Positions 14,572 through 35,945 are shown, counted from the first letter of the whole stretch. The stretch: DNA of 48,829 bases, filler included, from Sphacelaria rigidula (GCA_964200075.2; 3 parts of 3 records of this genome joined end to end with filler, not necessarily neighbours in it), one strand, 5' to 3'. Made by a program: numbers and translations. Notes: generated from the sequence alone by a model not told the origin.

Positions 14572-15664
14572 CTGCAAGACTCCCGCCGCTTTGACCGTAA
14601 CCAAGGAACGTCGTGAGCAAAGAGGGTAAACCATCAATGTTGGGTTTTGGAAGGGGAAGGGTGTTGTTCCATTGTATTTATAGCCAATGAGTCAGTATCA
14701 TGTGCCTACGTAAGCTCGCAAGAACCAAGCAACAACCAACTAAACACAGAAGGCTAATATCGACCACTCATCACCGTTGCGCCGCGGAAATTACACAAAT
14801 CGCTGGGGTACGCCACAGTCATCGACTCAGTTCCTTGTGCGTTCGCTCAACCGGGAATATCTGCCAGATCACACGCCACCAGTCGATCATGAATCTGCAA
14901 CCCGTAAGAGCTCGTTTGCGTCGGGAAACGCGTCAAAAAACTCCAACAGTAGCAGAATTGTCATTACCTTGGAAACGCGTGCACACCTCAAGACCTAACC
15001 AAACGGTTGCTCACGACACTTCGGAAGGAGAATAGACTGATGAAATTTGTACCGTCATGGATCGCACAAGTAGGTAAACATGCCGGACTGCCTTCACCTG
15101 TATGTATCAGTCCTTCCTCTGAATGAAAAGCAATTAGCATCAATTGGGGTGAAAGCGAAAGCCCACTTGGGCGACTGAGGTACAGAAGCCGATGACCCTC
15201 TTGACGTCACACTGACCTAGCTTCCACGGAAAACCCTGGGTACAGTCTAAAGGCCGTAGCAGTACATTCCAGTATGAAAAAATAGACAACTTCGTCCCCC
15301 CAGACTTGAAACGGAAAAAGCTCACCCACAACTCCCCCACGGCGTATTCTGCAAACTTCAACAAGTATAGATAGCCCTCGCGGACAGGGGACGGCACCGG
15401 TTCCTCCCCACTTTCTCCGGCGACACATTTGCCCTGGAGAGCGCGCTGGTTTGTGCAGTGTTATGAGGGCAAGTGAAAACGTGAGGAGGCGCGTAGGGGT
15501 GGTGGTGAAGACGCCGATCAGTGTTGCCACTATGTCGCGCTGGTAAACGTACATGTCCACTTTGGCAAGTCAGGCGACCGACAAAACGGATTATTAGATC
15601 ACGACGAGAGGCTTCAGTGAAATACAGTCCCTTCCATCTCATTGGCGACTCCGAGAAATACCCT

Positions 15665-15819
15665 TAATGCCTCATATTGGCGACATTGGCTAGAACGAAC
15701 CCAAGCGTGGGAATTCCCAGCTTCTCGTTGTGTTCGGCTTTTTCAATTTCGATTTACGTGAACATCTTGCCTCCCAAAACCATGCACTTTTGAGGGGGAG
15801 GCTATCGTAGTAAGTGTCA
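15665..15819. mobile_element. Partial copy of the TG...CA MITE family (one end)
   Basis: Matches 19070-19227 and the reverse complement of 27920-28075; ends in the TIR ...TATCGTAGTAAGTGTCA. Confidence 0.7.
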
Positions 15820-16211
15820 GCCTAGTGACCACAAGGTTCCGGTTCGAATTTTGCCTTCATCACCGCGGTAAATAACAAATAATAATGCGCATAAGGTAGC
15901 CCTGTCACAAAGAGTTGAATCTTTACTGCAAGAGCAACCGCGGACAAGAATCAATACACAAACTGGCGCGTCGGCGTTCGTGGTCTCAAATGAACAGCTG
16001 TGCGGCAAAACGAACGGGCAGGAACCAAGGGTAGCGATGATGAGGAGACAAATCAGTGAGCACAGTTCTCCAGATTGACAACTCGTGTGCCCAATACATG
16101 CAAGACGTCATGCGAAAATTGGTGCAAAGAACTCAACGGCTCCTCAGCGGAAACGCTCACCTCTACAGGCTTCTTGGTTCAAATACTAACGAATCAATAA
16201 ATCGGGGGGGG

Positions 16212-16311
16212 NNNNNNNNNNNNNNNNNNNNNNNNNNNNNNNNNNNNNNNNNNNNTTAATTAATTAANNNNNNNNNNNNNNNNNNNNNNNNNNNNNNNNN
16301 NNNNNNNNNNN
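16212..16311. other. Artificial assembly spacer (44 N + TTAATTAATTAA + 44 N)
   Basis: Exactly 100 bp, with a six-frame-stop linker; identical to 32523-32622. Confidence 0.97.
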
Positions 16312-16590
16312 CACAGGAGGAAGGTCAACACAGGAGCTTTTAATATTTATTTGTTTTAGTACCCCACCTTCCTTCTGCGGTGCTTGACTTTATTTTTTAT
16401 CGCGAGAGGGGTCCAGCAGTCCCTTTTCCTCGTCGACTGTGAAGTCGATTTTTGTGTACCCACGATATAGTCGCTCTCCACTGTTGAGCATGATGTAAGA
16501 AAAAATCCCAGGTCGCTCCGAGAATCGAATCCCACAACTCAACCACTAGAAGGTTACGAGGTTACCAACTGAGCCACCGGGGCAACCGCC
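16312..16590 (-). mobile_element. tRNA-derived SINE, family B (truncated by the gap)
   Basis: Minus-strand A box GGTGGCTCAGTTGG and B-box-like GGATTCGATTC. Body is homologous to 39832-40090. Confidence 0.8.
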
Positions 16591-17030
16591 TGTGAACACT
16601 GATTTTACTTCTTGTTTTTACTGCAGAAGCAAGTGAGCGTCACAGCCACTGTGCACCCTCTGCAATGCCATCTCCTAGATAGGAGGTGTGTCTCCCGATA
16701 GTACGACACACCAATCTTGCACCATATGCCAGAGGCGCGAAGGAAAGAACAACGAACAACACCGGCGCGCGAACCTCAATACGACGCGCAGCACATCTCT
16801 ACTTGCAGTCCATCACCATTGAGAATCATGCCCCCTTCCCCAGAGACTCTGATTGTTTTCATTTGGCAGACACTTGCAGACTTCGGTACCTCCCACAAGG
16901 GCCATAACCGGACCTTGTGCGGGGACAAGACGAAGTAAGCCAAGGAAATGACGCCTACAACGTTCACATGTATCCCCGATATTGGAATTGTCGCGTTACT
17001 CGAAACAAACGACGCAATCAAGCGACGCAC

Positions 17031-17121
17031 CTGCCGCTTCAGGGTCCAGTTGCATGTAAACCTCGTTGTTCTCGATTATATTACCCGTAGTCCCCTCCTT
17101 CATATCGACACCTTCATTTCC
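17031..17121 (-). CDS. Beta-helix gene exon (91 bp)
   Basis: ACACAG|GNEGVDMKEGTTGNIIENNEVYMQLDPEAA-G|GTGCGT. Confidence 0.85.
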
Positions 17122-20100
17122 CTGTGTTGCATTGCGGGTGAGAAGGAGTCACGGGAGCGAGAGGGCGTACTCTTTTGTTGTTTGCCTTAGTCGTTTGACC
17201 ATTCACCAAGGGGGTCGTGAGGGGGCGTACTCATTTGTTGCTTGCCTTGGTCGTTTGACCATTGACCACGCATCCCTTTCGAGACGGAGCACTGTTCATA
17301 CTCTTGATAGGACACCTCCAACATTCCGATGCTCATCACGTTTCTCCCATACATTACACAAAACCTTTTACATATCTTATCCCCGTCCTGTTTCGCCGTC
17401 TCTGGCCCCATCTATCTCCTAGTATAGGGGGTCGGGGGGGAGTATACAAGCGTGACAATGGATTCTGTGAAGCACACACCCTGCAATGGATTAGGGTTGA
17501 TTCGACCATTTATTTCAAAGGAGTCGAAAGGACTAGAACGATCTTTTCCACAGTCGAGGAAAGACGTCAGAGGCACTGACTCTAGTCAGCTGCGGCAATG
17601 GCAAGGGGAAACCCGGAGGATCGCTTCGAGGGGCTTTCAAGCTCGAAAGTACACCGGTTGTTCGTTAGAGGGAAATGCACAACAGTGAACTGATGTTCAA
17701 GCAAACGCCCAACTGTCAAATGATGCTATGAGCTTCAGCGGCGTGACAAGTAAAGTACAGTACAGCATTGCCACGGTTTACACGAGGTGCAGAATATACG
17801 AGAGTGATGCCGCGATAGCCCTTCCCAAGCCGGCCCCAGAACTACCAAAAGAATGCCCGTACAGCGCATGAAAGCTGGTTTCACACGGCATGGAGCGCCT
17901 CATATGGGGGACATTGGCAACCCCGATCGCAAGTGAGTTCCCAGCTGCACGGTGTGCTGGGCTTTTGTGAGTTTGATTCATAGCAAGATTTTTCCTCCTC
18001 AAACCAGCGACTTTTGCGGCAGGGGCTATCGCGGCATTACTCCAGCGTGTAACGAGGAGATTATGAAAGGGAAAATGTGAGTTGTCGAGCGTCACAAAAT
18101 AACATCTACCTGCAGGGAAGCCGTTTGAAAAATGATAATCCGTATGAAGAATATACTCAATTGCTTGTACTTTTGTTCAAGTATATCTCGTAGAGTACCC
18201 AAACGTTGGGTAAAGTTAGGTATGATCTAAACACTCTACCTCAATAATGGGTGGAGTCCGGTATGATAGGGTTAGGGTTAGGGTTAGATAGCGTGCGGCG
18301 GTTGAAGCGTGTACTTGTCATAACAAGAGAAGAGAACGTGATAAACGTAGGTGACGTTGGTTTCGTGTCTAGGCTCAGCAGACGCACGAATACGTGCTAT
18401 TCAAATTCTTGGATACAAATTTAGGTTACGATCAGATATACCTGGAAGACCATATACATGAGAAAACCAGGGATTGTTCTCTACCCCAGGGATTTTACTC
18501 TACCCAAGGTTTAGGTAGATTTGGTATGACTTCAAATACTACCTTCAAACATTGGGTGGAGTTAGGTATGATCTCAATACATTACCTCAATAATGGGTAA
18601 ATAATGGGTAGAGTCCAGTATGATCTCTGTTCTACCCAAGTATTAGGTTTGTACACTCGGCAATACTAAGGTACAGAGTAGAATTTAGGTATGACTTTTG
18701 TCCCCGATCCTACAATCGGGTAACATTGAGTATGACCTCAATAGTCTACCCCCCAAAATGAGTAGAGTTGGGTATGATAGCTACTCTACCCAAAAGTTAG
18801 TTCGTATCCTGAGCAATACCCGGGTATGGGGTATCACTTGGATATGAGTTCAATACTTTACCCAGCGTTTTGGGAAATTTGGGTACGATCTCTTATACTC
18901 CACCCCGATTCTGCGTAACTTGGATACAATATCATTTTTTTACCCATTTGTTTGAGTAATCAAAGTGCGACTGACACTTTCTACGATATCACCCCCCCTC
19001 AAAACCAGCCCAGAAGTGTCACGAAAAAAGTAACCATACAGTGCCTGTTGTTTGGGTTGAGGCTGCTTGAAATGCCTCATATTGGCAGCATTGGCTAGAA
19101 CGAACCCAAGGTTGGGAATGCCCAGCTGCTCGTTGTGCTCGGCTTTTCTCATTCCGATTTACGCGAAGCTTTTGCTCCCCAAAACCATGCACCCTGTTTT
19201 TTGGGGGGGGTATCATAGAAAGGGCCGACTTGCAAACTACGCCCGGGTGTCGGGTGTAACCTACCCAGTACCTCCTTGCAGTTCTGAAAGCTTCCATCCT
19301 GAAGTTATTGGGTCTTCATCCTGGACCGTTGTTTCCCCCCCCGAAGCACTCTACAATTTGAGGTCCATTGCTGAAAACGTTAGGGCACGAGTATCCGAAA
19401 GAGCTTATTCGACGCAAGTCCACGCACTTCGGGAGTCTTGATCCCAACCGGGGTACCGAAATGTAAGGTTTGTACTGCGCGGGGGACATGGGTACATATT
19501 CCAAGACCACGGAGTCTTCTCGGGGAAGGGAGGAAACGAAAAATGCTACGAGAGACAAACCCTAAATACAGCCGTATCTAACAATAATCAATCCAGCAAA
19601 CCTTCTCATTCCGATCGTTAGGGATCGAAACTGGTGGTCTGAGTAGTATATTCGCGGTAAATATTTTGTGCCGTTCTTGCAGATAACCCAGGTTTTCACG
19701 AGATCGATGTTTTTGAGAATGAGTAAGGCCGCGCTTGGCGGCCGTAGAGTGGGTTTGCACTTTTTTTATTCGAAACCAATTTCATGCTGCCCGAAGTTCT
19801 CGCCATGCGTTTGAAGTAATCACGACCACGTTGCCTGTGCACGGGGGAGAACTGATAACGGCTTGTCATGATGCTGTAAAATATCAATATCGTGCGTCTT
19901 GTGCCCGTAGTTGTCCACCAAGTAATCCAACAAAAGAGAAATGAGCTATCGTTTCGGGACCATGTCGGGACCCCCTGCCTTACTCCGTTGGTACAGTGCC
20001 GCGGCATGAAACACGGACTAACAATAGCAGGGGAGCAATGCTACGGTAGGGGTGCACTTGTTCGCGAAATCATGTCTAGTTCAGGGGCTCCTAACGATTC

Positions 20101-23100
20101 TAGATGCACAAAAATATGGATCAGGGCATCCCCGTTTGCGAATTTATTCGGGATATCCCCAGCACATTGGAGTAGTAATCCTGGTGTATTTCCACATATT
20201 TTCATAGGTAGTGTTTTGCATGAGATAAAGGGCTCCTAACAATTCTAACCTCGGAAAATATTTGTGTATCACTACCGTAGCATCACTCAGGGAGAAAAGA
20301 GGATCTTTGCTCCGTGCATGGGAGATACGCTCCATACAGCCAGGGAACCAGACAGCCACTCTCCCTCCCCCCAGGGATGAATGATCATTGGCACGATGTA
20401 GGCGAACCTGGCGGGTGTGTACAGAACTGACTTTACCCTCTCCACTTGTTATTTTGAAACCTAATGTACCGAATGAAACGCTGATGCGTACGTGGAAGTG
20501 CCCTGAGACGGCAGTCAGCACAGTATCCTGGCAATTGGCGGCTGCATTGTTCTGTCCTGCAATATATTGGTTTGTACTGTGCGTTACAATAGTTGCTCTG
20601 CCTTACCCGTGCGACAATCAATCAATCGAATCAAATCAATCACCCTGTTCACGCTGTTGTGTGTCCCGAGCGATCTGTGCAACTTCATTCCTCTCGGACA
20701 ACGGCTGCTTTACATTAGCTGTGCTGCCCCGTACTGCACTGTACTGTACGATGTGCGTGTACGAACAGACACGCGCGGTATACTCAGTGTTGTATAACGG
20801 GGCACTCAGAACTACGTAACCTGCCCGATCTGCCCTTGGTGTTTTTCTATTACATCACTATTATTAGGTGAACACCCGAGAATATCCTAACCGAGGATTC
20901 TGGAATAAGAGGTTGGGCACTCGAATGGGGCTCAAGTGGCCTTCCAAAAAGTCACGTCTCGTGCGAAACAGTATTTCCAAAGGAGAGCATTAGCGCAAAA
21001 AACGTTTCTGTTACAGCTGAAACAATGTTTTCGTGAGATTGAGAGTTGAAGCTATGATTGAGAGTGAAAAGTTTATTCGAATGGCGGTCACATGCACCTT
21101 TCAAACTGTTACATGACACGTTGGCTTGTAGCATAATAAGAGGCTAGTTGACCCTCAGTAGGCCAGAAGAAATGTTCGTACACAATGCTTAACAGGGATG
21201 ACTACTCGAATTTAGACTTGATAATGTTCGGAAATAAAATACGGTTTGGGGCAGATGAGCAGCGGATCCAGCTCGTCCAAAATATGTTTTTGTCGACCTG
21301 CCGCGACGATTTGAAGTCTGCCAATGCACACTTTGCCTAGGGGGATGAAGTTATGCACCCTCCTCGTCCGAGGGTCTCGTACGCATCGGGTCGGGGTTAG
21401 GGTTAAGGTTAGTGTTAGTGTTAGTTTGTAACATCCCATGATGTTCCTCATCAACCATCATCTACGAACATTTCCTTGCGTCCCCTTCCTTAGATCGCGA
21501 GGGTAGGTCACCTGCTGAATCGGCATCAATTTTCACTTGAAAAAAGTATGTGTGATCCACATGGACTACCCGCACGGCGGTTTAAGGGTTAACCGTCGTT
21601 AGGCTACGTTTTAGAATTGTTGGCACAATTTCACAAGTATCGCTACCCCTAACCCTAACCCCAACCCAACGCATACCGAGGACCCTCGGGCAAGGGCGGG
21701 ACATACATTCCCTCGGCAAAGTGCGGCCTTGGTAGACCCCAAATCGGCGCCTGTGGCGCCGATTTCAACGGAGACGCGTTCTATGCACGCGACGAGCACA
21801 CGGGACTGTCAGCCTCACTAGAATTCCGATCTTCATTATTGACACGCAAATCACGTGATATAAACCCTTCTAAGACGTAGACCAACACCGGTAAACTCTA
21901 CTGCAGTGCAATAGAGTTTACCGAGGTTAGGGTACGGTTTAGAATGGTTGATGTTCCTCGATTCGAGTGTGAACAACGAGAAGCATAATTTTTGTGGGGC
22001 TGACAGTCCCGTGTGCTCCTTGCGTGCGTACAGAACGCGTTTTTCGTTTAAATCGGCGCCACACTTTGCCTGGGCAATACACGCTAACCCGATGAATGCA
22101 GTGTACTCGTGTGTCGATCGATGACGATACCACCGGATGAGATATGGCAGACAGGGAGCTCCCAGCCTGTGTCCTTGGTGTGTCCTTCCTTCTTCGGCGA
22201 TTCACACTCGTTAAAGAGATTTGCATCATGCTACCAGCACATAACCGATTTGCCATGTGCCGACAGGCGGGCTGCACAGCCCCCTGAACAAGATCGGGGT
22301 ACCGAGGGTAATCGTCTGCCCTTTGTCTGTGGCGCTGATCGATGCAAATATCGGTTTCTCTCTGCGTTCTTGTTGGACGGGCCGTGCCTCTGTGCGCTGC
22401 AAAATACATCGTCGAAAAGCAGGGCGGTCTTCCCGTCACTGCTCTGTTCTCACACACACATGCTAGCAAGGACGGTCGTGCCAACATCCAATAGCATGGT
22501 GTGTGGTGTTATTATCATCGTTGATTTCACTCGATCTATGCCACAAGGACAAGAGTCTGCCACATGCCATTGAGGGGGTATGTATGAGAGATGAACCGAG
22601 TCATCCTACGATAGGGGGGGTGGTATTTCGGGGCACTTCTTGGACGAAATTCCAAGTCAGTATTTAATCATCGAAACCCCACAGTCAGTACAGCAACACA
22701 AAGGCTATGACATTATACATAGGTAGTGCACTCTCTGGGATATTCGTCATCATTCGTGACACACAGACGGTGCAGTTGGGATTGTTTTCATATATATATT
22801 AGTATAGGACACAATCGGAACAGAAACAAGTCACTACCTATGTATACATCTTGTATATATATCCAACTGCACCGTCTGTGCGTCACAGACGATTTCTTTT
22901 TTATTATTTTTCATATGTATTTTAGTATCGGACAATCGGAACAGAAACAAGTGCGCTACCTATGTATAATATCATAGCCTTTGCAGCAACAAAATATTCG
23001 TCAGGGCTCATTTGACCTACCGCTGACTATGCTGCTTGAAAGCTAAACTCAGGCAAGGCCTTTCTGGTCAGCGCTTGACGGTGTAGATCAAAATTGCAAC

Positions 23101-23213
23101 GGCTAGTGGTGAACCATAGAGTACCATTGTTCCTCGTGAAAATATATCTCGCCTAAGCTTGTGACGAATTCACACGGGAAACTTCGAAACACATGAACAC
23201 ACACACACACACG

Positions 23214-23259
<46 letters not shown>

Positions 23260-26200
23260 TAAGCACGCGCCCGGATGTACGTAAGGAAACCTATAGACTA
23301 CAGCATGACAGCCCACATATGGATCATGTCGAGCTTTTTTTGGCGATCTTTCTGTTTCTCTTCACATGGAAAAATCGCTCTTGTGCCCGTGACTGGATCC
23401 CTCGGGAGTCAGCGAAGATGGTGCAATCAAACCGTGTATCAATCAACCACAGTAATGCTGTGCTCGTTGATTTTTAACCCGCATTCGCGTAGACCCAAGT
23501 TTCGATTTACGCTATGTGCTGTTTCGATCACAAGAAGAGCAAGGACACAATCTGGAACACTCTCTCAGAACATGGTACTGAGAATAAATTTACTCGAAAA
23601 TTACATACACAGAAGAATCATTGGACGCTAGAGCAATGGTTTTCACGGTGATGGGATGATACGCACACAGAAGATCCTCATCAGTAGTGCGCTGTTTTAT
23701 GATGCCCGAGCGTTGATATTGGACTAAGGAAGTTCGTCAGTTTGAATTTTCGGTAATGCCTCTGGGCATGTCATTCGGAATTCGAACATTTTTTCGTCAC
23801 ATGTGAACACGGCTGGATCCCTGGGGGGTCAGTCAAAGTGCGACGATCAACGAACCAACCAATCAATCAACCAATCAATCAACTTTGTCACCCCTTTCGC
23901 CCTTGTTAGTCGGTCGTTCCCATTTATGCGGTCATTTTCCGTTCTCTCTGGTTACGTTTTGGTTCCATTATGCGGGGCATACTAACAAGTTCGCGCTTTT
24001 GCAGGTACCGAAGCACTTACTCTTCGTTTTATAAGTGGAAGATTTTCTGTATTTAAATGAATAACATTTTCCCGTACCGTACTGTCCCTTACCATCACAT
24101 TGGGTTCACGGTACCAGTATGTTCACACAGTCAGACTTCACGAGCTGCCGGGAAGTTCTTAGTCACTACTACCATTGTAGCATTGCCACACCATTCGCGA
24201 GGTGTGTACGACAAGCGTTCAAATATATTACGCTCTCGCTGAGAAATGAGCATCAACAGAATGTTCGATAGTTGTATCGCTCCCCTCAGGTGAATTAGAG
24301 GTCACGATATTGTTGGATTAACATGTTTCATTCCCGCGTGTACCGTTCAACTTGAGTATTACCCAAAAATATCTCACGTTAGTCGTGATGATGTTGTTGC
24401 TGATGATGTTGTTGATGCACGCGTCGGGATCGGCGGTGGGGTTTTTGCCGTCGGCCCACATATCTTCCGCAGTGCCAATGTCTGACAAACAATAAGCGAA
24501 GAAGCGCAAAAAATGATGTTTAGACGTTCCATTGGATGAAATAAGGAAGGAAGTTGTCGTGATAAAGTTCCTGAGATTCGGAGGAAGGTGAATAGTCGAA
24601 TACACCCTTGAAGAGCAACAGCAGATATAGTGATCGGATACAAATTCCTTCCTGTTGAACAGCCGTCCCTACCATGTTTGTACAACGCCGGAGGTGTCAT
24701 CTACGGTATACCTCTACAGTAAAATGGGTTACTACGTCAAAACTCGGAAACTTACAAATTCCCTCCCCGGTCTTATCTCCTTCATTGTACCTGCAGCGCA
24801 GTCAAGCCGACGGCGTGTGAGCAGCATTGGCGGGGAGAAGGGACGGGGCACATGTTTACGACGTTGCCACACATTAAGTGATCCCCAGCAGACATAGCCT
24901 TTGACACAAAGTAGACGTACGCGAGGGAAACGAAACGAATCCACTCGCTAAAGAGGAAATCAGGCGCGTGTGGGGGGCGCACCCATTTGTTTCTTGCCTT
25001 AGTTGTATGACCATTGACCACGCATCCCTTTCGAGAGTACATACAAGTGTTTGTGAGGGGGGTGGAACGATCGGCGTTACTTGCAAAACGAACAACGGAG
25101 ACAAGGATAAACAAACTAAACAAAACGAACAACAGCAAGCCCAGGCACGAAACGGAAATGGAATACACACACGTAGAACTCGAGAACAATGGCACACGTT
25201 CGTGAATTTCAGGTATTTGACAAAGAGCTAACTGTATGTTCGTGATATCAGGAACGGTTTACGGGATAATAAATGGGTTTGAAATCGAACCTCCGCATAT
25301 GGCCGCCGATCTCTTTCAGGCAACTCTGGATTGACCGAGACTTTCGTGGAAGACGTCGTTTGTTTTATTGGAAGTTTGCGTATAGAAGAGGGAGATATGA
25401 TTTTTCTCCTACGGCGATTGGGATTAGCGACGGTGCCAAACCAAGAAAGAGAGTCTCTCTTTTTATACTATACTAGAGGCTCCTGTGTGCTGTCATCAGT
25501 TAGCTTTGGGGCGAGGGGCAGAAGGGACAGGCTAGCAGAATATCTGTACAACCAAAACAAGCCTTGGCGTCTACCGATAGATGTGCCCCACATCATTCCT
25601 ACCCCCTCCGACATGCACAATGACCTGCAGGGGTCAGGACCTTCATCTACAAGCATGTGATGCAAAAGCACTCTGCTGCAGTACTGTACCGATGTGCAGT
25701 GAGCGAACATGCCAGAAGTTGTCCAATGGTCCTCCGCAAAGACAATCTAGGGCAAAGACAATCTAGGGCAGAAGGCATGGCAGAACCTATACTACGAACC
25801 CGCTGCTATACATAAAAGGAGCACGGCCTACTATTTGCTCGGTACGCTCACACCGCACGCCCATCTAATCCACCGCAGTACTGCCTTGTACATGTGCAGT
25901 GCATCCTCTGCACTGAACTTTTGTTGTACTGTACTGTACTGTACTATTTTGACCTTGGGAATTCGTGATTCTCAATCAAACAATTATAATTCACCTTCCC
26001 TCAAGGTTTCACTCTCCGAAGTGATAGGTATCAGCTATGAAATCGAACGGATCAGCGAACCTTGGAATCAATTTTACCAAAAAGATCGCTGAACGTTTTT
26101 ACTCAGACGGTACATGTAGGAACGGAATCAGCAATGTTTGCCGGCAACCGAAAGAACACCAGGGAAGAATGTTCTCTCAAAGTACAGCGTAAAACAATGC

Positions 26201-29200
26201 CGGGAAGATTCAAGGTCTTATCCGTTCCACACACTTACACCGCAAGCCTTCGTAATTAGAACCGTCCGAAAAAAAGTTGAAATGTCCTGTCAAAGCTCAC
26301 CCTCAATAATCGAATCGCCACATCCAAGCCCTTTTCGAATTATCTAGCAAGTGTTTAGGGGGTAGGTGTACCCCATGATGATAACCTAGGACTAATATGT
26401 TCCGACTTCCTGCACGCAACTCCAGTTGCTGCCTATGCATGACTCCAACCTGAACCACCACACGCCATGCCTTCTGCATTAGATTGCCCCTGCGAAAAAA
26501 CACCGGACAGCTTCTGGCATGTTCGCTCACTGCACATCGGTTAAAAACGACAGTAGAGTGTTTTTGCATCACACGATCGTAAAGTAAGATCCTGACCCCT
26601 GCAGGTCATTGCGCGTGTTGGAGGAGGGTAGGAATGGTGTGGGGCACATCAATCTGCAGACGTCAAGGCCTTTTTATATGGTACAAATGTTCTGCTAGCC
26701 TGCCCCTTCTGCCCCTCGCCCCAAAGCTGGCTGATGACAGCACACAGCGGCCTCTAGTGTAGTATACAAAGAGAGACAAAGTTATCGACTTTCTTTCTTG
26801 GTTTGGCACCATCGCTAATCCCAATCGCCGTAGGGAAAACATCATATCTCCTTTTCTTTACGCAAGCTTGCAATGAAAAACAAATGACGTCTTCCACGAA
26901 ATTCTCGGCCGACTCAGTGTTACATACCTGTAAAAAATCAGCAGTCATATGCGAATGTTCGATTTTAAATCTATTCCTCATCTTAGGATCCGCTCTTGAT
27001 ATCACGACCATACTGTCAGCTGCAACCACCCATTGTACGCGATGTAGCCCCGCTCGTGGAGCACAACGGCCAACATTCATTTCAGTTGAGATATCCTATT
27101 TAGTGGGGCTAGCTGCCATCGCGAAAATCATACTCACACGAAGTCGAGGATACCGCAGTTGGTTATGGTGTTGCCGTCTATCTTGGCGTTTGTGACAAAG
27201 TCTCGTCAGAGGTAAGATGGCACGATAAAGTACACGCGCGCGAAAACATCAGGAAGACAGAGAGTGCGAAAAGGTGCGGGAAGGTGGAAACGAAAGCGGG
27301 AACTTAGGCCGGACAGCGTTAATGATTTGATGAAAGTGTCAACGATATTTTTGATGTCTTTGAATATAGTGCTTTCATAGCGCAGTGAGCGAGGTGACGC
27401 GAGGAGGGGAGGGGTGGGCCTACTCATTTATTGCTTGCCTTAGGCATTTGATCATTGACCACGCACCCCCTCGCGACGGATTCCAGTTCCTGATTAAAAC
27501 AGAGACACCCTCAGTGTTTGGACTCTCATCATGTTTCTCCTACAGTACACATATGACTTTTACATATCTTGTCCCCTTCGTGTTTTGCCGTCCATGGTGA
27601 CCATCTATTTACTAGTGTAGCGATTGTTTCCCCCCTGTTGTTTAATGTACCAAGCTATTTCATGCTATCTTTGTTCACTTCTCATGTTTCCCCCTCTCAA
27701 GGTCTCGCTCCTCCTTCCATAGTTCACGTTCTGCCACTAAATGAATCGTACTCTCTGTTGCTTTGCTAGAGGGGCAATTCTGCGCATGTACTCCCTCCCA
27801 ATCTCGACTATGATATAGTTCCTCCTTCTTTCTGGCAGGTCCAGGTCCTCCACCCGAAGTCGCTCTTCCAACGTTTTCGCGTCGTCCATTAGGTCGTGTA
27901 GATATGTTTTATCCTTGTCCGACACTTCCCACGGTAGCCCCCCCCCGGTCAAAAAGTGACTGATTTGGGGAAACACAATATTCACGTAATTCGAAATGAA
28001 AAAAGCGGAGCACAACGAGCAGCTGGGAATTCCCACGGTTGAATTCGTTTCCGTCAATGCCGCTCATATGAGGCGTTTCAAGAACCTGAAACCAAACATC
28101 AAGTGCTGTATGACTATTGTTTTCGTGACAGTTTTGGGCTGGGTTTTGGGGGGGGGGAATCGTAAAACGTGTCATCCCCTCTCAGTCCCCCGAATATATC
28201 AAGGTGCTCTTCCTCGTATACTTTGCGTCTTAGCGCTTGTTCCCCCCTTAATTCTCTGGCGTCTCTTAGCTTCGTTGTGTGCCCCCCACATTCCCCCATA
28301 GATATGATCTCGTTTTGGTTTCCACTCACGTCCTTCCATACTTTTTCGACTACGCTATCCCGGTTTATTCCAGCCTGCCTTTGCCCTCTTTCACTTTCTT
28401 TCATACAGCCCTATCAGCCATGGCTGGTAATATCTTTCTCGACCTATTCCTCACGTTGTATTGCCGTTTCAGTTTCTCCTCGTACAATGGTATCTTCCAC
28501 ACACAAGCTGTTCCATGTCCACACACAAGCTGTTCCATGTCCACACACAAACTGTGCCAAATTTGGAACTTTAAGTGTTCCGCGCCTTTAAAGGTTTCGA
28601 CCGCCGTGCACATCAGCTCGTCGTGTCTTTGGTTGCGCGGAAGGTTTCGACTCATCTGGTTACGACAGCTCTCGTAATACCTTGTTTCTGCTCGCTATCC
28701 CCACTATTCTACTATGTTATCAACATTTGTGCAAAAACCATATCTCAAATTTGGTGGGTACGTATGGCAAGCTCCGACAATATGCATCGTCACGGGTATA
28801 GTATATTGATACCACGAATATTTGCGGTAACATACTCACAGCGCAAACGCACGCACTCGTCCTCGGCGTTCTGGATGACCATGTTGCGGACAACTAGACC
28901 ATCTACGGCTGACAGGTACCCGCCGGCCCTCATCGTCCGTTCCTCAAGCCCTGCTCGGAACAGGTGCTCAATGAATACGATGATGTGCTCGGGCATTGTG
29001 ATTGTGGGAATATGGTCAGGCATTACCTCACAACGGATCTATGTGCTTTTAGGAGTACAAAAAATTACCGATGTAGTGGTGAAACAAAACATTGGGCATA
29101 AACGAATTGCGCGGGGTAGCATTTTGCGGAAGAGAAGGCCCCCTTCGTATCGAACTCGCACTGCGTATCGTTATACGACAAATGACATACCTCTCTGTTG

Positions 29201-29514
29201 ACTAAGCTGATGTTTTGCATCTTCTCTCAGCTTTACAATACTCATGAGTTCACGGGTTCATCTCTGAAAGCATATTCAATAATAAATTAGCTCATATGTG
29301 AGCGCCCTCCCCTTTTGTTTGCTGGTATCTGAGAGTTCCTATGAAACCGGGAGGGGGCAATCCCCAGTATGTGAACACACACCTTCGGGCAGCATGTTTG
29401 TACACTAAGACTGTTGTACGTCTCACCAATGACAAAGAGAAGCTTGGTGCGATATGCCGCCAGGTAGTTGGTGCTGTTGGCGTTCTCAATAACTTCTCCA
29501 TCAATGGTGAAATC
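17031..29514 (-). CDS. Right-handed parallel beta-helix (pectin-lyase-fold) protein, putative polysaccharide lyase-like; internal part of a multi-exon gene
   Basis: Six exons (29514-29427, 28950-28840, 27201-27138, 24790-24756, 24481-24378, 17121-17031; 493 nt) splice with compatible phases into DFTIDGEVIENANSTNYLAAYRTKLLFVIGLEERTMRAGGYLSAVDGLVVRNMVIQNAEDECVRLRYFVTNAKIDGNTITNCGILDFVYNEGDKTGEGIYIGTAEDMWADGKNPTADPDACINNIISNNIITTNGNEGVDMKEGTTGNIIENNEVYMQLDPEAA. It shows Asn/Ile ladder repeats and GEGIYIGT and EGVDMKEG motifs. Confidence 0.85.
17150..17427 (-). mobile_element. LINE (non-LTR retrotransposon) 3'-end fragment with a 60-bp tandem duplication
   Basis: Homologous to 27410-27620 and 24968-25036. 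The minus strand reads ILGDRWGPETAKQDGDKICK. 17161-17220 is duplicated at 17221-17280. Confidence 0.65.
18180..18945. repeat. Degenerate ~41-bp palindromic minisatellite with an embedded (TTAGGG)3
   Basis: GGTATGA-like motifs recur at ~41-bp spacing (e.g. 18523, 18564, 18688, 18729, 18771). The unit contains ACTCTACCC...GGGTAGAGT inverted halves. TAGGGTTAGGGTTAGGGTTAG lies at ~18267-18287. Confidence 0.65.
18972..19227. mobile_element. MITE (~256 bp), TG...CA-type termini, 2-bp TSD (AC)
   Basis: TIRs TGACACTTTCTACGATA...CCCCCCC / GGGGGGGGTATCATAGAAAGGGCCG, flanked by AC on both sides. Three copies in the window. Confidence 0.75.
21307..22070. repeat. Cluster of inverted fragments of a telomere-motif-bearing repeat, with hairpins
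   Basis: 21307-21404 is inverted relative to 21650-21746, and 21755-21826 is inverted relative to 21988-22063. Hairpins at 21741-21765 and 21889-21923. GGGTTA/TAACCC motifs are present. Confidence 0.6.
22699..22983. mobile_element. hAT-type MITE (285 bp) with an 8-bp TSD
   Basis: TIRs CAAAGGCTATGACATTATACATAGGTAG... / ...CTACCTATGTATAATATCATAGCCTTTG, with a perfect TSD CAGCAACA at 22691-22698 and 22984-22991. Confidence 0.88.
23197..23256. repeat. Compound microsatellite (AC)n(GC)n(AC)n
   Basis: Directly visible dinucleotide run. Confidence 0.95.
24378..24481 (-). CDS. Beta-helix gene exon (104 bp)
   Basis: TTGTCAG|AC-IGTAEDMWADGKNPTADPD...IITTN|GTGAGA. Confidence 0.85.
24756..24790 (-). 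CDS. Beta-helix gene micro-exon (35 bp)
   Basis: CTGCAG|G-YNEGDKTGEGI-T|GTAAGT. Confidence 0.8.
24968..25036 (-). mobile_element. Short LINE 3'-end fragment
   Basis: Matches 17221-17285. The minus strand reads SRKGCVVNGHTTKARNK. Confidence 0.6.
25226..27021. repeat. Long diverged inverted repeat (~420-bp arms 25226-25643 and 26586-27021)
   Basis: For example GATGTGCCCCACATCATTCCTACCC...GACCTGCAGGGGTCAGGA versus TCCTGACCCCTGCAGGTC...GGGTAGGAATGGTGTGGGGCACATC. The ORF track gives near-identical peptides on opposite strands. Confidence 0.85.
27138..27201 (-). CDS. Beta-helix gene exon (64 bp)
   Basis: ACGAG|AC-FVTNAKIDGNTITNCGILDF-GT|GTGAGT. Confidence 0.8.
27410..28480 (-). mobile_element. 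5'-truncated, decayed LINE (ORF2 C-terminal region), interrupted by a MITE
   Basis: Broken minus-strand frames KLKRQYNVRNRSRKILPAMADRAV / DSVVEKVWKD / EEEHLDIFGGLRG / KTYLHDLMDDAKTL / DLDLPERRR, and a degenerate zinc-knuckle-like segment. Its 3' end is shared with two other copies. Confidence 0.7.
27920..28174. mobile_element. MITE (TG...CA family) inserted into the LINE, 2-bp TSD (TC)
   Basis: Reverse-complement homologue of 18972-19227. Ends are CGACACTT... and ...CGTGTCA, flanked by TC on both sides. Confidence 0.75.
28499..28550. repeat. 22-bp tandem repeat (~2.4 copies)
   Basis: ACACACAAGCTGTTCCATGTCC twice plus a partial third copy. Confidence 0.85.
28840..28950 (-). CDS. Beta-helix gene exon (111 bp)
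   Basis: AGCAG|GG-LEER...DECVRLR-T|GTGAGT. Confidence 0.85.
29427..29514 (-). CDS. Beta-helix gene exon (88 bp)
   Basis: TTCCAG|DFTIDG...LLFVI-G|GTGAGA. Confidence 0.8.
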
Positions 29515-30877
29515 CTGGAATCGGGACATGATAATTGCAGGGAAGGGTTTATATCAGTATATGCATTTCCATGTGTGATCGCCGAGTTTGCGTACCCACC
29601 GCCCCGAACGAAGGACTGGGGCTGAACGCTTGACACAAAAGGGATACACCTACTGCTAGCTCTTGTTTTGTACAAATGATGGTGGATGCTCAGACTTTGG
29701 CTTCCGAAACACTGAATCTTCAAAATGAGGTTGGTAGTCATAGTAGGCTCATTCCGTATTCAGGTCAAGGAAACGCGGTAGGGCCAAGACCTAGGCATGG
29801 CGGGATTTTCGCGAACACGGCCCTGCCGGCATATATAAAATTTCCACCAAGTATTTTCACCACACCATTTTGTCCACCACAAGCACATCGGTTGTCGACA
29901 TATTGCTCAATAGCCAAAGAGGTGGTCGCTGAATTTCAGCGCCCGATACCTACCACAAGGAAACTGTATCCACTTGTCCTCGTGTAGAATGATAGGATCA
30001 CGTGAACGACAACGCTGTTGACCTGGTTGAAAACGCCCTCAACTTTCGAAGCAAGAGTCAAACATATTATGTTCCCGAAATCTCGCCAGCCACCGTAAGC
30101 TGCTTCGTCGGGCACTAGTCGTAGTGACAGAATGCCGCAAACCGTGGAATGTCCTCACGATGAATTTCATATCCCACTCATTTGGAGCTGCGTGGTGTCC
30201 TGAGAACGCGTGTCTCGGTTCATTTGCATGCCACGAAGAAACAAATGTTCGTGTTGAACTTCCAACCAGTCTCCATCGGTATGAGTCCATAGACGCAAAG
30301 GGTTGACCCATCTCTCCTCTGGTACACGCCTTGCACATTGGTTTCGCGGACTGGATCATTACTCTCGCAACGGCACGACTCTCGTCAAAAACAACATATT
30401 TGCTACTCACGCCCTCACGTTTTCAACGACTGGCACAAATATTGTCCGGGGACAAACCGAATGCACCTGCCGGTAAGCCGATCAGCATTCTTTTGTCCTA
30501 TGAGTTGAGCCAGCCACACAAACCGCATTCATTCGACGCACGATAACGTTTTCAGCTTTCGGAATGAGCCCGATATACGTATATCGCTGCGAATTGCAGG
30601 CCAACATGATGCATGCTCTGACGTTGAAGCAAATGGGGGAAATTCACTGCATAACACATGACCTCAACGGCGGAACCAGATTATACGAAAAATGTGTTTG
30701 TCGGGATTCGAACTCGTGACCATTCGCCCTCGTGAACACATCTCACATACTATTCAGATGTTAGAGTGCAGCGGTGTCACAAAGTAGTGGTATGCAATGC
30801 CTAATTTCACAAACCTTGAGCCGAACGTTTACAAGGACCTTCTGCCCGCAAAATCTATTTATTCCAAGAAAGCTGAG

Positions 30878-31232
30878 AAAGGTTTTCACACGTCGGACGA
30901 GTCATTACCTCCGAAACGAGTGCACTCGTGGGTGTTTCTTAGAAACAAAACGAGCAAGACTCGGGTGCTCGAGTCGTTTCTTCTTTTTACAACGAGAAAT
31001 GACTCGAGTGCTCGCCCTATTACGTTTTTTCCACAACGAGCAATGACTCGAGTGCTTGCCCTATTGATTTTTTCCACAACGAGTAATGAGTCGAATGCTT
31101 GCCCTACTACTTTTTTCCAAAACGAGCAATGATTTGAGTGCTCGCCCTATAACGTTTTACGGCCAACGAGCAGCTCAACGAGTGCGAGTGCCACGAGTCA
31201 TACTCGTGCTCGTCCGACGTGTAAAGATCTTT
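30878..31232. mobile_element. TIR-bounded non-autonomous element filled with a ~43-44-bp tandem repeat
   Basis: TIRs AAAGGTTTTCACACGTCGGACGAG / CTCGTCCGACGTGTAAAGATCTTT. Internal units AACGAGCAATGACTCGAGTGCTCGCCCTATT...TTTTCCAC start at ~30949, 30991, 31035, 31078, 31121. Confidence 0.7.
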
Positions 31233-32522
31233 TCATTTGATTTCATCGAGTCATACCATTCCCTGCTTTATTTCACAATTCATGTCCTCTTGAAGATATG
31301 TTTTCTTGATAGCTTCTGCTATTGTCCGGATATTGATGACATGAATCTCGTGTCCAAATTGAAGCCCTATACTCCTAAAAGTAAGCAGGGAAAAAGCATT
31401 GAACCGCTATCACCCACTCTTGGCCGGCCCTACCATTAGACTACCAGACCGCGATCAGTATCAAGTTTCAGGGTGACGAAATTACATGATATATCTTCAC
31501 TTCATTGTGTGATTTGAGTGGTATTACATGAGGGGTATTCAAAAGCATTCTCTGGTATGAATTGCCAGGGACGTCTGTCATGTTCTCTGAAGAACGACTC
31601 ATGAAATATGTGCGAAAGCGCCATAAATAATCTTACAATGTACTAGGAATATGCCAAATGGGTTTGAAATCGAGAATGTCCTGATCCAGATTCTTGCGTA
31701 GTGCCTACCTTTCGAAGTCGTCCGATGAGAAACATCTGGGCCTAAATATGAAATCCATACCGTGGTGTGACTCATTTAATGAAATGATCATTACATCACG
31801 GTAATCATACCTTGTAAACCTCCTATCAGACAAATACGATGAAGCTGCAAGGCATTACTTGCGGTGTCTTCTTCGTCAAAAAATCAGAACGTTTCGCCCT
31901 TTCGAACGTTGTGTGAATTCAGTCTGGTCCCGGTCAAGGTATCCTAGCGATGAGGCTGTAATACTTTACTTGCACCCAATTCGTTGATGGACTCGCTTTG
32001 AAGTCACCCCACTGGTTTACGCCCCTCGGATCCATTCATTTAACACTATTACAGTTTGGCTTGAGTCGAAACCATACTATCATGATTGAGATGACATCGA
32101 ACAAGATCATACAAGTTACCACCAGCGTAAGTTTGATTTTTGTCGGACAAAAACGCTCCAAGCTATGTACCCGATTATGTCTCCTGAAAAATTAGCAAGG
32201 GACTGTAACGCCTTGACACCCACTCCTTGTCGTGGCAATGACAGAAAACATCTCATCAAGATCACACCACTTATTACGTGTATTCTGAAGGGGGCTTGTT
32301 TCCCACTTTCCCGTTTTTTTTTAGTGAAATAGTGACAAATCAGCCAAAGCACCAAAATCAGTAAAGCTTGTCTTGCTGGAAATAGGTATTTGGAGGGGTT
32401 CTGCACCGGCTTGCGGGGGTCTTCACGCCGGGACCTAGAAAGCCAGCAAATGGCATATAATATTTGAAATATTCTTCGACAAATCAGAACAGCCTGGATT
32501 CGTTTTTGAGGTTCAACATTAG

Positions 32523-32622
32523 NNNNNNNNNNNNNNNNNNNNNNNNNNNNNNNNNNNNNNNNNNNNTTAATTAATTAANNNNNNNNNNNNNNNNNNNNNN
32601 NNNNNNNNNNNNNNNNNNNNNN
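32523..32622. other. Artificial assembly spacer (44 N + TTAATTAATTAA + 44 N)
   Basis: Identical to 16212-16311. Confidence 0.97.
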
Positions 32623-35217: not shown

Positions 35218-35343
35218 GAGACAGTCTCGTGACAGCGCAGGGCGTGCCTACTGCCCGCACCAGCTGCTGAAGCAGCTTCGCACGGGGTTTGACAAGCGGA
35301 TAATACGAGCTGGGCCAGCCGAGAAGCGAATTCGTAGTTTGCA

Positions 35344-35611
35344 GGCCCATTGCACGGCCAGTATTCAGAGTTGGACCCTGAAATTCGGTATGGACAAAGA
35401 AAATGGCACAATGAAAACAATCACCAGTGCACACAAGTTTTTTTTGTTTGTCCATGAGTTGAGGGCAATTTACTGATGCCTGAAAACTGATTATCGCCCT
35501 TGACTCATGAAAAAAAACCTTTTGTGCACTGGTGATTATTTTTGTTATGCCCTATTCATTCTCATACCAAATTTCAGGTTCCAACTCTAAATATTGGCCG
35601 TACAACGGGCC
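35344..35611. mobile_element. Foldback MITE (268 bp), GGCCC...GGGCC termini
   Basis: Near end-to-end palindrome: GGCCCATTGCACGGCCAGTATTCAGAGTTGGACCCTGAAATT / AATTTCAGGTTCCAACTCTAAATATTGGCCGTACAACGGGCC, plus ATCACCAGTGCACA / TGTGCACTGGTGAT. Confidence 0.75.
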
Positions 35612-35936
35612 GTTTCGTGACGGGATCAGAATAAATTCGGAACAGTTTTGTGCAGGCCACTTAACCCTTAGACAGCGCCCCCTCCGCTGGTAGACTAAGG
35701 TAGACACCACACTTTTCGGGTCCATTCCTTTGTCACAACTTAAAATGCCTACTTCACGGCGGAAGGGACCGGAAGTGCATAGGAGGCACATAGTTGCGTC
35801 ATAACACAGACGGTGGTGGGGTTGTCGACCACCTGATTATTACGCCTCATATTATTGCTGTGCAGTCTGTAGTGGATCGTGCCGCGGCTGCACGTGCGGT
35901 CTGCAGCGCACTGGATCTTAGAGCGTTGAACGTGCC

Positions 35937-35945
35937 NNNNNNNNN
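35937..35945. other. Short N gap
   Basis: 9 undetermined bases. Confidence 0.95.

What the first reader, a model, noticed from the sequence alone, without database searches (positions are those of the whole stretch)
17031..29514. Hidden gene: six small exons encode a bacterial-type beta-helix polysaccharide-lyase-like protein
Seen: six exons of 35-111 bp over 12.5 kb with GT donors and AG acceptors, whose phases (1,1,2,1,0) chain into one stop-free 164-aa peptide. Split codons rebuild the motifs ECVRLR|YFVT, GEGI|YIGT and TN|GNEGVDMKEG. Three of the six exons do not appear in their coding frame in the ORF track. Knowledge (from recall): DExxxLR...GEGxYIGT...ExxDxKEG with Asn ladders is typical of bacterial right-handed beta-helix proteins, including PL9-like sheath-polysaccharide lyases, where an acidic cluster binds Ca2+ and a Lys is the catalytic base. 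Inference: an intron-rich, domesticated enzyme, possibly gained by horizontal or virus-mediated transfer, acting on algal wall polysaccharide (alginate or fucoidan) or on epiphytic bacterial sheaths. The substrate is unknown.
Basis: partly seen in the sequence, partly recalled or inferred. Interest (0 to 1): 0.78.

Follow-up and report, generated by a model that had tools for sequence, protein, structure and literature searches.

The report
Split alginate-lyase gene in brown alga
Six tiny exons spread over 12.5 kb really do join into the catalytic core of a beta-helix alginate lyase, an enzyme family that brown algae are already known to carry in many copies, so the gene is real but not a new kind of thing.

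Summary
On the minus strand, six exons (88, 111 or 69, 64, 35, 104 and 91 bp) have AG acceptors and GT donors, intron phases 1,1,2,1,0, and join without a stop.

- **Homology:** the joined peptide scores 75.8-76.4 bits (E about 1e-25) against a profile of 90 bacterial relatives of PsAly, the PL31 alginate lyase (PDB 6KFN). The single exons score at most 19.5 bits.
- **Independent recovery:** a spliced-alignment script of my own finds the same boundaries at 66.7-76.7 bits, against 20.7-36.0 in controls.
- **Active site:** the equivalents of PsAly's catalytic Tyr184 and Lys221 and its cation ligands Glu181, Glu216 and Asp219 are all present. The Tyr codon is split by intron 4.
- **Conservation:** exon 6 has ten homologues in raw public assemblies, and their similarity stops exactly at its two ends.
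- **Organism:** the neighbouring genes point to a brown alga.

Brown algae carry about 20 PL41 alginate lyases each, acquired from bacteria, and PL41 is the family closest to PL31. This is most likely one more PL41 member, not a PL9-like enzyme.

Three things stay open. I found no N-terminal or C-terminal exons. I have no RNA evidence. I could not fetch any PL41 sequence, so PL41 versus PL31 is untested. A truncated copy remains possible.

The parts
29427..29514 (-). An in-frame ATG lies at 29529-29527. This is the weakest exon.
   Evidence: Acceptor ...ttccag|, donor |gtgaga. It adds only 1.2 bits to the profile score. It has a coil-like beta-helix pattern, and it lies in a single-copy contig of X1 (record 7).
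28840..28950 (-). Exon 2 (111 bp from acceptor 28951/28950). The in-frame alternative acceptor at 28909/28908 gives 69 bp. It ends with the first base of the split Tyr codon of ...RLR|Y.
   Evidence: The two acceptors score 76.4 and 75.8 bits, so the profile cannot separate them. My spliced alignment picks 28908. The exon holds the Glu and Arg of the DEx[VI]xxR coil, which are invariant in 22 bacterial relatives.
27138..27201 (-). Exon 3 (64 bp, acceptor gag|, donor |gtgagt, ends in phase 2).
   Evidence: It was recovered by the spliced alignment at penalty 10. Using it instead of reading through the exon 2 donor raises the score from 67.8 to 75.8 bits.
24756..24790 (-). Exon 4 (35 bp). It encodes ...GEGI plus the first base of the codon for the catalytic Tyr.
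   Evidence: It contains the Glu equivalent to PsAly Glu181.
24378..24481 (-). Exon 5 (104 bp). It starts with the last two bases of the Tyr codon (the PsAly Tyr184 equivalent) and ends in phase 0.
   Evidence: The frame alone scores 9.1 bits against the bacterial profile. A perfect 15-nt tandem (1.9 copies) lies inside it at 24386-24414.
17031..17121 (-). Exon 6 (91 bp, ends in phase 1 at donor gtgcgt). It encodes the E-x-x-D-x-K-E-G catalytic and cation motif.
   Evidence: Alone it hits PDB 6KFN, E 6.6e-5. It scores 19.5 bits against the bacterial profile. Ten exon-limited homologues exist in raw assemblies. Because the phase is open, at least one more exon must follow, or the frame stops 11 codons into the intron (ORF 16996..17148).

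Best explanation
The six exons are real coding exons of a nuclear brown-algal gene. They encode the central, catalytic coils of a right-handed beta-helix polysaccharide lyase of the PsAly/SjAly type (CAZy families PL31 and PL41).

It is most probably one more member of the expanded brown-algal PL41 alginate-lyase family.

Inferred mechanism, by homology with PsAly: beta-elimination on polymannuronate stretches of alginate.
- The substrate carboxylate is neutralised at a site formed by the Glu of GEGIY and the Glu and Asp of E-G-V-D-M-K.
- The Lys of that motif abstracts the C5 proton.
- The Tyr of GEGIY, whose codon is only created by splicing exons 4 and 5, protonates the leaving O4 (syn elimination).

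In the alga such enzymes are thought to remodel the organism's own wall alginate.

Shown here: the exon structure, the homology, and the conservation of the five key residues.

Inferred, not shown: the substrate, expression, secretion, and the existence of the missing N-terminal (about 100 aa) and C-terminal (about 100 aa) parts.
For: Exon structure and homology:
- Exon 6 alone hits the PL31 alginate lyase PsAly (6KFN) at E 6.6e-5.
- A degenerate pattern for its motif retrieved at least 120 bacterial loci, mostly Actinomycetota. I listed 122 frames around the pattern matches in the 121 loci held by then (L001-L121), and 90 yielded a usable domain.
- A profile of 22 of them hits 6KFN at 3.9e-96.
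- The joined window peptide hits the 90-sequence profile at 75.8-76.4 bits, E about 1e-25, collinear over profile positions 96/114-216 of 313.
- My intron-aware alignment recovers 28908, 27201, 24790/24756, 24481/24378 and 17121 on its own. It scores 66.7-76.7 bits against 20.7-36.0 in controls.

Active site:
- In the alignment the window keeps the bacterial invariant columns E (DE), R, E and Y (GEGxY), and E, D, K, E, G, T, G.
- By the chain numbering (+34), these are PsAly Arg156, Glu181, Tyr184, Glu216, Asp219 and Lys221.
- Passages of PMC6796002 give Y184F and K221A as inactive. They say Tyr184, Lys221, Glu181, Glu216 and Asp219 are conserved in the brown-algal SjAly.

Conservation of exon 6:
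- An exhaustive phmmer search of 1.84 billion representatives gave 11 hits at E <= 0.001.
- Nine are 42-83-aa unnamed frames from raw assemblies, 62-74% identical by the table (60-67% in the alignment). One more cluster member makes 10.
- Their similarity covers only the 30 exon residues. It is preceded by Q or K and followed by G in 10 of 10.
- The Glu and Lys are invariant. The Asp is kept in 9 of 11 rows.

Coding signature: GC3 is 0.677 against intron GC of 0.42-0.475.

Organism: the best named relatives of the flanking ankyrin gene are two Ectocarpus species (E 2.5e-53 and 4.3e-52). The next named hit is a generic ankyrin protein at 3e-39.

Literature:
[quoted passage not shown] It was acquired by HGT, and its bacterial homologues are mainly in Streptomyces (passages of PMC11468063).
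- SjAly is a 359-aa, seven-exon, polyM-specific endolytic lyase with a parallel beta-helix model (abstract and section 5 of PMC6426991).
- PL31 and PL41 are each other's closest families (passages of PMC11890756).
Against: - No exons for profile positions 1-95/113 or 217-313 were found.
  - In the 11.5 kb upstream, the real score was 17.4-24.2 bits against 16.3-34.0 in controls.
  - In the 2.9 kb downstream, before the next gene, it was 12.1-15.6 against 12.5-19.2.
  - The test has little power for small, diverged exons. Still, the gene as seen is incomplete: no start with a signal peptide and no stop.
- The window core is far from the bacterial set.
  - Median identity is 31% (range 23-47%), against a median of 47% among the bacteria.
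  - Its tree branch is 2.0 substitutions per site, against a median of 0.11.
- Some PsAly active-site residues differ or cannot be seen.
  - His154 is Arg.
  - Asp188 and Lys191 are Ala and Met, though these vary in bacteria too.
  - The Lys128 equivalent is Ala under the 28950 acceptor.
  - Asp250 and Lys252 lie in the missing part.
- No full-length annotated protein reached E <= 0.001 with exon 6. A word search with the exon 6 frame found none either.
- I could not fetch any PL41 sequence, so assignment to PL41 rather than PL31 rests on the organism and the literature.
Confidence: 0.6

Rival explanations
1. A truncated copy or pseudogene. Only the middle third of a PL41/PL31-type lyase gene survives here, for example after a partial duplication or disruption by the transposable elements that fill the introns. 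No functional enzyme is made.
For: - No N-terminal or C-terminal exons score above the null.
- Motif scans upstream found nothing resembling the conserved N-terminal cap.
- Only 2.9 kb, much of it high-copy repeat and 88 masked bases, separates exon 6 from the next gene's large exon.
- Exon 6 ends in an open phase.
- Passages of PMC11468063 acknowledge that gene fragments are an unresolved issue in these genomes.
Against: - There are 164 codons without a stop, six intact GT donors and six AG acceptors.
- All five key catalytic and cation residues are intact.
- GC3 is 0.677, well above the intron composition.
- The search for terminal exons had little power. Even the true exons 2 and 3 score only 2.6 and 1.4 bits alone.
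Confidence: 0.3
2. It is a PL31-type lyase, or a separate intron-dense lineage between PL31 and PL41, rather than a PL41 member. That would make it a second polysaccharide-lyase lineage in brown algae, possibly with a substrate other than alginate.
For: - Every homologue I could actually compare is PL31-like.
- The Arg156 equivalent is kept, whereas passages of PMC6796002 list His154, Arg156, Asp250 and Lys252 as not conserved in SjAly.
- There are six exons in 164 aa, against seven exons in 359 aa for SjAly (PMC6426991).
- The only close relatives of exon 6 among 1.84 billion representatives are unannotated frames, not annotated proteins, although annotated Ectocarpus proteomes are in the collection behind it.
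- Passages of PMC11890756 say half or fewer of the characterised PL31 enzymes act on alginate.
Against: - The core is more distant from the PL31-like bacteria than they are from each other and sits on a very long branch. That is what a sister family would show.
- PL41 is abundant in every brown alga examined, and no other PL family has been reported there (PMC11468063).
- The listing threshold (about 34 bits for 30 residues) would miss paralogues below about 60% identity.
Confidence: 0.1
3. One reading: a PL9-like pectate or sheath-polysaccharide lyase that acts on fucoidan or on epiphytic bacterial sheaths.
For: The fold class is the same. SjAly was once modelled on a PL9 template (section 5 of PMC6426991).
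Against: - No PL9 chain was found by exon 6, exon 5 or the family profile in the PDB at E up to 10, 10 and 1.
- The PL9 catalytic Asn and Lys are not conserved in SjAly (PMC6426991).
- The conserved residues match the PsAly Tyr/Lys site instead.
Confidence: 0.03
4. Not a host gene: bacterial contamination, a recent phaeovirus insertion, or a chance chain of frames.
For: The family is of bacterial type. The Ectocarpus homologues of SjAly are annotated after a Feldmannia virus protein, FirrV-1-B30 (PMC6426991).
Against: - Five GT-AG introns of 274-7256 bp interrupt the coding sequence.
- Depth in run X1 is uniform single-copy across the exons and the unique flanks.
- The locus lies between two eukaryotic genes.
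- Scans of viral contigs with the family profile and the exon profile gave only high-GC phage-like bacterial-type relatives or nothing.
- The null controls are far lower.
Confidence: 0.02

Closest known systems
SjAly of Saccharina japonica and the brown-algal PL41 family (Ectocarpus proteins annotated 'FirrV-1-B30 precursor / NosD')
   Same: - A nuclear, intron-containing gene in a brown alga.
- A parallel beta-helix lyase.
- The Tyr184, Lys221, Glu181, Glu216 and Asp219 equivalents are conserved. This is reported for SjAly in PMC6796002 and seen here.
- A multigene family of bacterial origin (PMC11468063).
   Different: - No direct comparison was possible, because no PL41 sequence could be fetched.
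- There are six exons for 164 aa here, against seven exons for the whole 359-aa SjAly.
- The Arg156 equivalent is kept here but is listed among residues not conserved in SjAly.
- The ends of the gene, including any signal peptide, were not found.
PsAly of Paenibacillus sp. FPU-7 (PL31, PDB 6KFN) and its actinobacterial relatives
   Same: - Significant sequence similarity over about 105-120 residues of the catalytic core.
- The same GEGIY and E-x-x-D-x-K-E-G motifs and the same spacing of coils.
- The inferred mechanism is the same: Lys as base, Tyr as acid, and cation-assisted syn elimination on polymannuronate.
   Different: - Only 23-47% identity (median 31%) and a very long branch.
- His154 is Arg.
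- The Asp250, Lys252 and second cation-site regions were not found.
- Split by introns and encoded in a eukaryote.
   Same: A right-handed beta-helix, beta-elimination and cation-assisted chemistry. PL9 served as the template for the first SjAly model.
   Different: - No detectable sequence similarity here.
- The catalytic residues are at other positions (PMC6426991).
- PL9 uses anti elimination on alpha-1,4-galacturonan. PsAly-type enzymes use syn elimination on beta-1,4-mannuronan (PMC6796002).
PL6 alginate lyases and chondroitinase B (AlyGC, BcAlyPL6)
   Same: Beta-helix alginate lyases. The bacterial family profile finds their N-terminal cap at E 3.6e-8 to 0.034.
   Different: The similarity is confined to the N-terminal region, which is not found in the window. 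PL6 uses a catalytic Lys/Arg pair that is not conserved in SjAly (PMC6426991).

Membership tests
PsAly/SjAly-type beta-helix lyases (PL31 + PL41 together) | Significant sequence similarity to the catalytic domain | tested here: met
   Exon 6 against 6KFN gives E 6.6e-5. The joined peptide scores 75.8-76.4 bits, E about 1e-25, against the profile of 90 bacterial domains. That bacterial set hits 6KFN at 3.9e-96. Caveat: the set was collected with a motif taken from exon 6, so the exon 6 match is partly by construction. Exons 2-5 are independent of it.
PsAly/SjAly-type beta-helix lyases (PL31 + PL41 together) | Catalytic Tyr184 and Lys221 (PsAly numbering) | tested here: met
   The Y of GEGIY (a split codon across exons 4 and 5) and the K of E-G-V-D-M-K-E-G align to the invariant Y and K columns. 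Roles are from passages of PMC6796002.
PsAly/SjAly-type beta-helix lyases (PL31 + PL41 together) | First cation site: Glu181, Glu216, Asp219 | tested here: met
   All three are present in the alignment. In the exon 6 relatives the Glu216 equivalent is present in 11 of 11 rows and the Asp219 equivalent in 9 of 11.
PsAly/SjAly-type beta-helix lyases (PL31 + PL41 together) | A complete beta-helix domain of about 300 aa (N-terminal cap, C-terminal coils with the Asn ladder) | tested here: inconclusive
   Only profile positions 96/114-216 of 313 are covered. Searches for the rest do not exceed the controls, but these searches have low power.
PL31 (CAZy) | Other fully conserved PsAly active-site residues: Lys128, His154, Arg156, Asp250, Lys252 | tested here: inconclusive
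   Arg156 is kept. His154 is Arg. Lys128 is Ala under the 28950 acceptor, or possibly kept under 28908 by my own reading of the spacing. Asp250 and Lys252 lie in the part not found.
PL41 (CAZy) | Closer to SjAly and the brown-algal PL41 sequences than to any other PL family (dbCAN HMM or tree) | not tested
   No PL41 sequence or HMM could be obtained. Three word-index searches, one exhaustive search and scans of viral and metagenome contigs gave none. The supplementary alignments of PMC11468063 and PMC6796002 were closed.
PL41 (CAZy) | Host range: brown algae and Schizocladia among eukaryotes | tested here: met
   The best named relatives of the flanking ankyrin gene are Ectocarpus sp. 13 and E. 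fasciculatus. Identity is only 42% over 27% of the query, so this is a brown alga or close kin, not Ectocarpus itself.
PL41 (CAZy) | Secreted enzyme with endolytic polymannuronate lyase activity | not testable with these tools
   No N-terminal exon or signal peptide was found. Activity needs a biochemical assay.
   No PL9 chain appears among the PDB hits of exon 6 (E up to 10), exon 5 (E up to 10) or the family profile (E up to 1).

The most novel reading that the evidence does not exclude
This locus and the ten unannotated exon-6 look-alikes in raw assemblies may belong to an intron-dense lineage of PsAly-like lyases that current brown-algal gene models miss. It could be a fifth, unannotated PL41 group or a distinct PL31-leaning family. 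Its catalytic Tyr exists only after splicing, and its substrate need not be alginate.
Probability: 0.1. Interest if true: 0.5.

Novelty: new member of a known kind. Interest (0 to 1): 0.28.

Why it matters
Alginate lyases let brown algae cut and remodel their own wall alginate. The PL41 family was only recognised in 2019, and only one member has been characterised. A correct model for one more copy adds a little to gene catalogues. It also shows that copies built from very small exons (35-111 bp), separated by repeat-filled introns of up to 7 kb, can be found by motif chaining where ORF tracks fail. Family counts may therefore be underestimates. It does not change the picture of alginate metabolism, unless the copy turns out to belong to a separate lineage.

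Tried and rejected
**RNA evidence**
- The look-up of sequencing runs listed no RNA holder.
- Three small runs of the same species label, guessed to be RNA (X5-X7), were laid on 16312-32522.
- Their contigs cover only repeats and give no cover on the exon bins and no exon-exon joint. This is a blank, not evidence either way.

**Getting brown-algal PL41 sequences**
- The word-index search with the exon 6 frame found nothing.
- The search with a bacterial scaffold plus the six exons as rows gave 1897 hits, of which the 120 listed are all bacterial or unnamed.
- Metagenome scans with a fragment and with the exon alignment found nothing.
- Viral scans found only high-GC phage-like relatives, nothing, or a chance match in what looks like a phage terminase (my reading of the ORF).
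- The protein atlas gave only generic beta-helix clusters.

**Other negative results**
- Pfam on single exons found no family.
- MAFFT stacks the short exons on one coil, so that alignment served only as a source of words.
- An alternative upstream exon at 31697-31637, proposed by my spliced alignment, adds only 3.5 bits and puts Phe or Pro where Lys128 should be. I did not adopt it.
- Reading through the exon 2 donor gives a peptide faintly like exon 3. There is no DNA similarity beyond the shared donor, and 14 of 500 shuffles score as high. I rejected it as chance.
- A possible exon 7 around 16840-16800 (coil-like peptide) has a purine-rich acceptor and no profile support, so I did not adopt it.
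- Rfam found nothing in the window.
- Pfam on nine other ORFs of the 15-40 kb region found nothing.

Full report
**1. What is there**

The feature lies on the minus strand. I read the sequence and placed the exon ends by script.

| Exon | Coordinates | Length |
|---|---|---|
| E1 | 29514-29427 | 88 bp |
| E2 | 28950-28840, or 28908-28840 from an in-frame alternative acceptor | 111 or 69 bp |
| E3 | 27201-27138 | 64 bp |
| E4 | 24790-24756 | 35 bp |
| E5 | 24481-24378 | 104 bp |
| E6 | 17121-17031 | 91 bp |

- Each exon follows an AG and precedes a GT. Four of the six donors start GTGAG.
- The intron phases are 1,1,2,1,0.
The 451-nt version gives 150 aa without a stop.
- E3, E4 and E6 sit in stop-to-stop frames of 23, 34 and 50 aa, which is why an ORF track would not show them.

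**2. Is it more than chance?**

Exon 6 alone finds one solved structure, the alginate lyase of entry 6KFN, at E 6.6e-5.

- A degenerate DNA pattern for its motif found one relative in viral contigs and at least 120 loci in prokaryote genomes, mostly Actinomycetota.
- I listed 122 frames around the pattern matches in the 121 loci held by then (L001-L121) and kept 90 domains for a profile of 313 positions.
They score 19.5, 9.1, 2.6 and 1.4 bits and are collinear on the profile.
- Joined, they score 75.8-76.4 bits, E about 1e-25. E2-E6 alone score 74.6 bits.
- I wrote a profile-to-genome alignment that allows GT-AG introns in all phases and ran it on 27 kb. At intron penalties 10 and 12 it scores 76.7 and 66.7 bits and recovers 28908, 28840, 27201, 24756, 24481, 24378 and 17121 (24790 at penalty 12). 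The reversed profile, the plus strand, and both together score 20.7-36.0.
- The joined CDS has GC3 0.677, GC1 0.521 and GC2 0.360. The introns have 0.42-0.475 GC.
- All exons lie in single-copy contigs of run X1 (depth 68.9-78.5, no differences). Parts of the introns are repeats at depths of thousands to millions.

One caveat: the bacterial set was gathered with a motif from exon 6, so only exons 2-5 are independent tests. E1 adds just 1.2 bits.

**3. What it is**

The bacterial set is PsAly-like. A profile of 22 diverse members hits 6KFN at 3.9e-96. The weaker hits after it are the N-terminal caps of PL6 enzymes and other polysaccharide lyases, plus one unrelated ligase. No PL9 chain appears.

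According to passages of PMC6796002:
- PsAly (later CAZy PL31) is an endolytic, polyM-preferring beta-helix lyase.
- Tyr184 and Lys221 are essential.
- Glu181, Glu216 and Asp219 hold the first cation.
- Exactly these five residues are conserved in the brown-algal lyase SjAly, which is 24% identical to PsAly.

With the chain numbering (+34), the window's motifs map as follows.

| Window motif | PsAly equivalents |
|---|---|
| GEGIY | Glu181, Tyr184 |
| E-G-V-D-M-K-E-G | Glu216, Asp219, Lys221 |
| D-E-C-V-R-L-R | keeps Arg156; Arg replaces His154 |

The Tyr codon is T|AC across intron 4, so the proposed catalytic acid exists only in the spliced message.

**4. Context**

- The locus lies between a giant minus-strand gene with a UBR box and a plus-strand ankyrin gene.
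- The ankyrin gene's best named relatives are two Ectocarpus species, at E about 1e-53 and 42% identity over 27% of the query. There are unnamed 100% and 74% matches in raw assemblies. The organism is therefore a brown alga or close kin, but not close to Ectocarpus.
[quoted passage not shown] It has on average 19-22 genes per genome in at least four orthogroups. It was acquired by horizontal transfer before brown algae diverged from Schizocladia, and it has bacterial homologues mainly in Streptomyces.
- SjAly is 359 aa, has seven exons with GT-AG introns and a signal peptide, and was modelled as a parallel beta-helix on a PL9 template (abstract and section 5 of PMC6426991).
- PL31 and PL41 are each other's nearest families (passages of PMC11890756).

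The simplest reading is that the window holds one more PL41 gene.

**5. Independent comparative support**

The one exhaustive search I had (phmmer, exon 6, 1.84 billion representatives) gave 11 proteins at E <= 0.001.

- Two are unrelated repeat proteins.
- Nine are unnamed 42-83-aa frames from Logan, ENA or JGI assemblies. A tenth came as a cluster member.
- In the alignment, similarity of 60-67% covers exactly the 30 residues of exon 6.
- In 10 of 10 rows it is preceded by Q or K, as a frame read through a CAG or AAG acceptor would give. In 10 of 10 it is followed by G, as G|GT would give. Beyond those points the rows are unalike.
- I did not see their DNA, so the splice sites themselves are inferred.

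This shows a family of loci with the same exon, and with the Glu and Lys invariant.

**6. What is missing**

- The exons cover profile positions 96 or 114 to 216 of 313.
- Intron-aware searches for positions 1-113 in 28909-40400, and for 217-313 in 14100-17030, do not exceed their controls. Motif scans and inspection of all frames gave nothing convincing.
- These tests are weak for exons this small and this diverged.
- Exon 6 ends in phase 1, so the reading frame must continue. Otherwise it stops 11 codons into the intron.
- The putative RNA runs gave no cover on the exons, which is a blank.
- A truncated or dead copy therefore remains a serious rival. I put it near 0.3.

**7. PL41 or PL31?**

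I could not obtain any PL41 sequence or HMM, so membership is untested.

- The window core is 23-47% identical (median 31%) to the PL31-like bacteria. They are 47% identical (median) to each other.
- It sits on a branch of 2.0 substitutions per site inside an actinobacterial set (SH-aLRT 96, but long-branch placement is unsafe).
- This fits a sister family such as PL41. It does not exclude a separate lineage. I give that about 0.1.

**8. Verdict**

- It is wrong about PL9.
- The family, its origin by transfer and its expansion in brown algae are already published. This is a new member of a known kind, with an incomplete model and no expression evidence.

Noticed in passing
window 2005-14117 (minus strand): Very long open frames (430, 510, 1793 and 1001 aa) belong to one giant gene. 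It carries a UBR-box zinc finger (Pfam zf-UBR, E 7.6e-6), so it is probably a UBR4/BIG-like E3 ligase. Its first visible exon lies only 2.9 kb downstream of exon 6 of the lyase gene, on the same strand.
   Followed up: partly
window 40413-44031 (plus strand): An ankyrin-repeat gene with two long open frames (297 and 711 aa). Its best named relatives are in two Ectocarpus species, and there are 100% and 74% identical unnamed frames in raw assemblies. I used it only to place the organism.
   Followed up: partly
window 16312-17393, 19017-21721, 27673-28213, 30919-31459: The introns and flanks of the lyase gene are full of very high-copy repeats. Summed contig depth there is thousands to millions, against about 70 for single-copy parts of run X1. 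A 64-nt element occurs four times (17161, 17221, 24973, 27414). Long inverted repeats lie at 25391-25754 / 26475-26851.
   Followed up: partly
window 28908 and 28950 (minus strand): Two in-frame AG acceptors 42 nt apart could both serve exon 2. The profile scores are 75.8 and 76.4 bits. This may be alternative 3' splice-site use; it needs RNA to settle.
   Followed up: partly
window 24386-24414: A perfect 15-nt tandem duplication (1.9 copies) lies inside exon 5 and encodes the doubled N-N-I-I motif. The length of this coil still matches the bacterial profile, apart from one single-residue deletion.
   Followed up: no
window 23197-23256: An (AC)30 microsatellite lies in the 7.3-kb intron 5.
   Followed up: no
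window 16212-16255, 16268-16311, 32523-32566, 32579-32622, 35937-35945: Runs of N: two pairs of 44-base runs, each pair 12 bases apart, and one run of 9. The first pair lies in the stretch where the next lyase exon would be sought.
   Followed up: no
L001 and L125 (the same IMG/VR contig), L122-L124: PsAly-like lyase genes occur on high-GC contigs filed as viral. In L001 the gene is fused to an N-terminal concanavalin/laminin-G-like domain. These look like actinobacterial prophage or misfiled bacterial DNA, not algal viruses.
   Followed up: no
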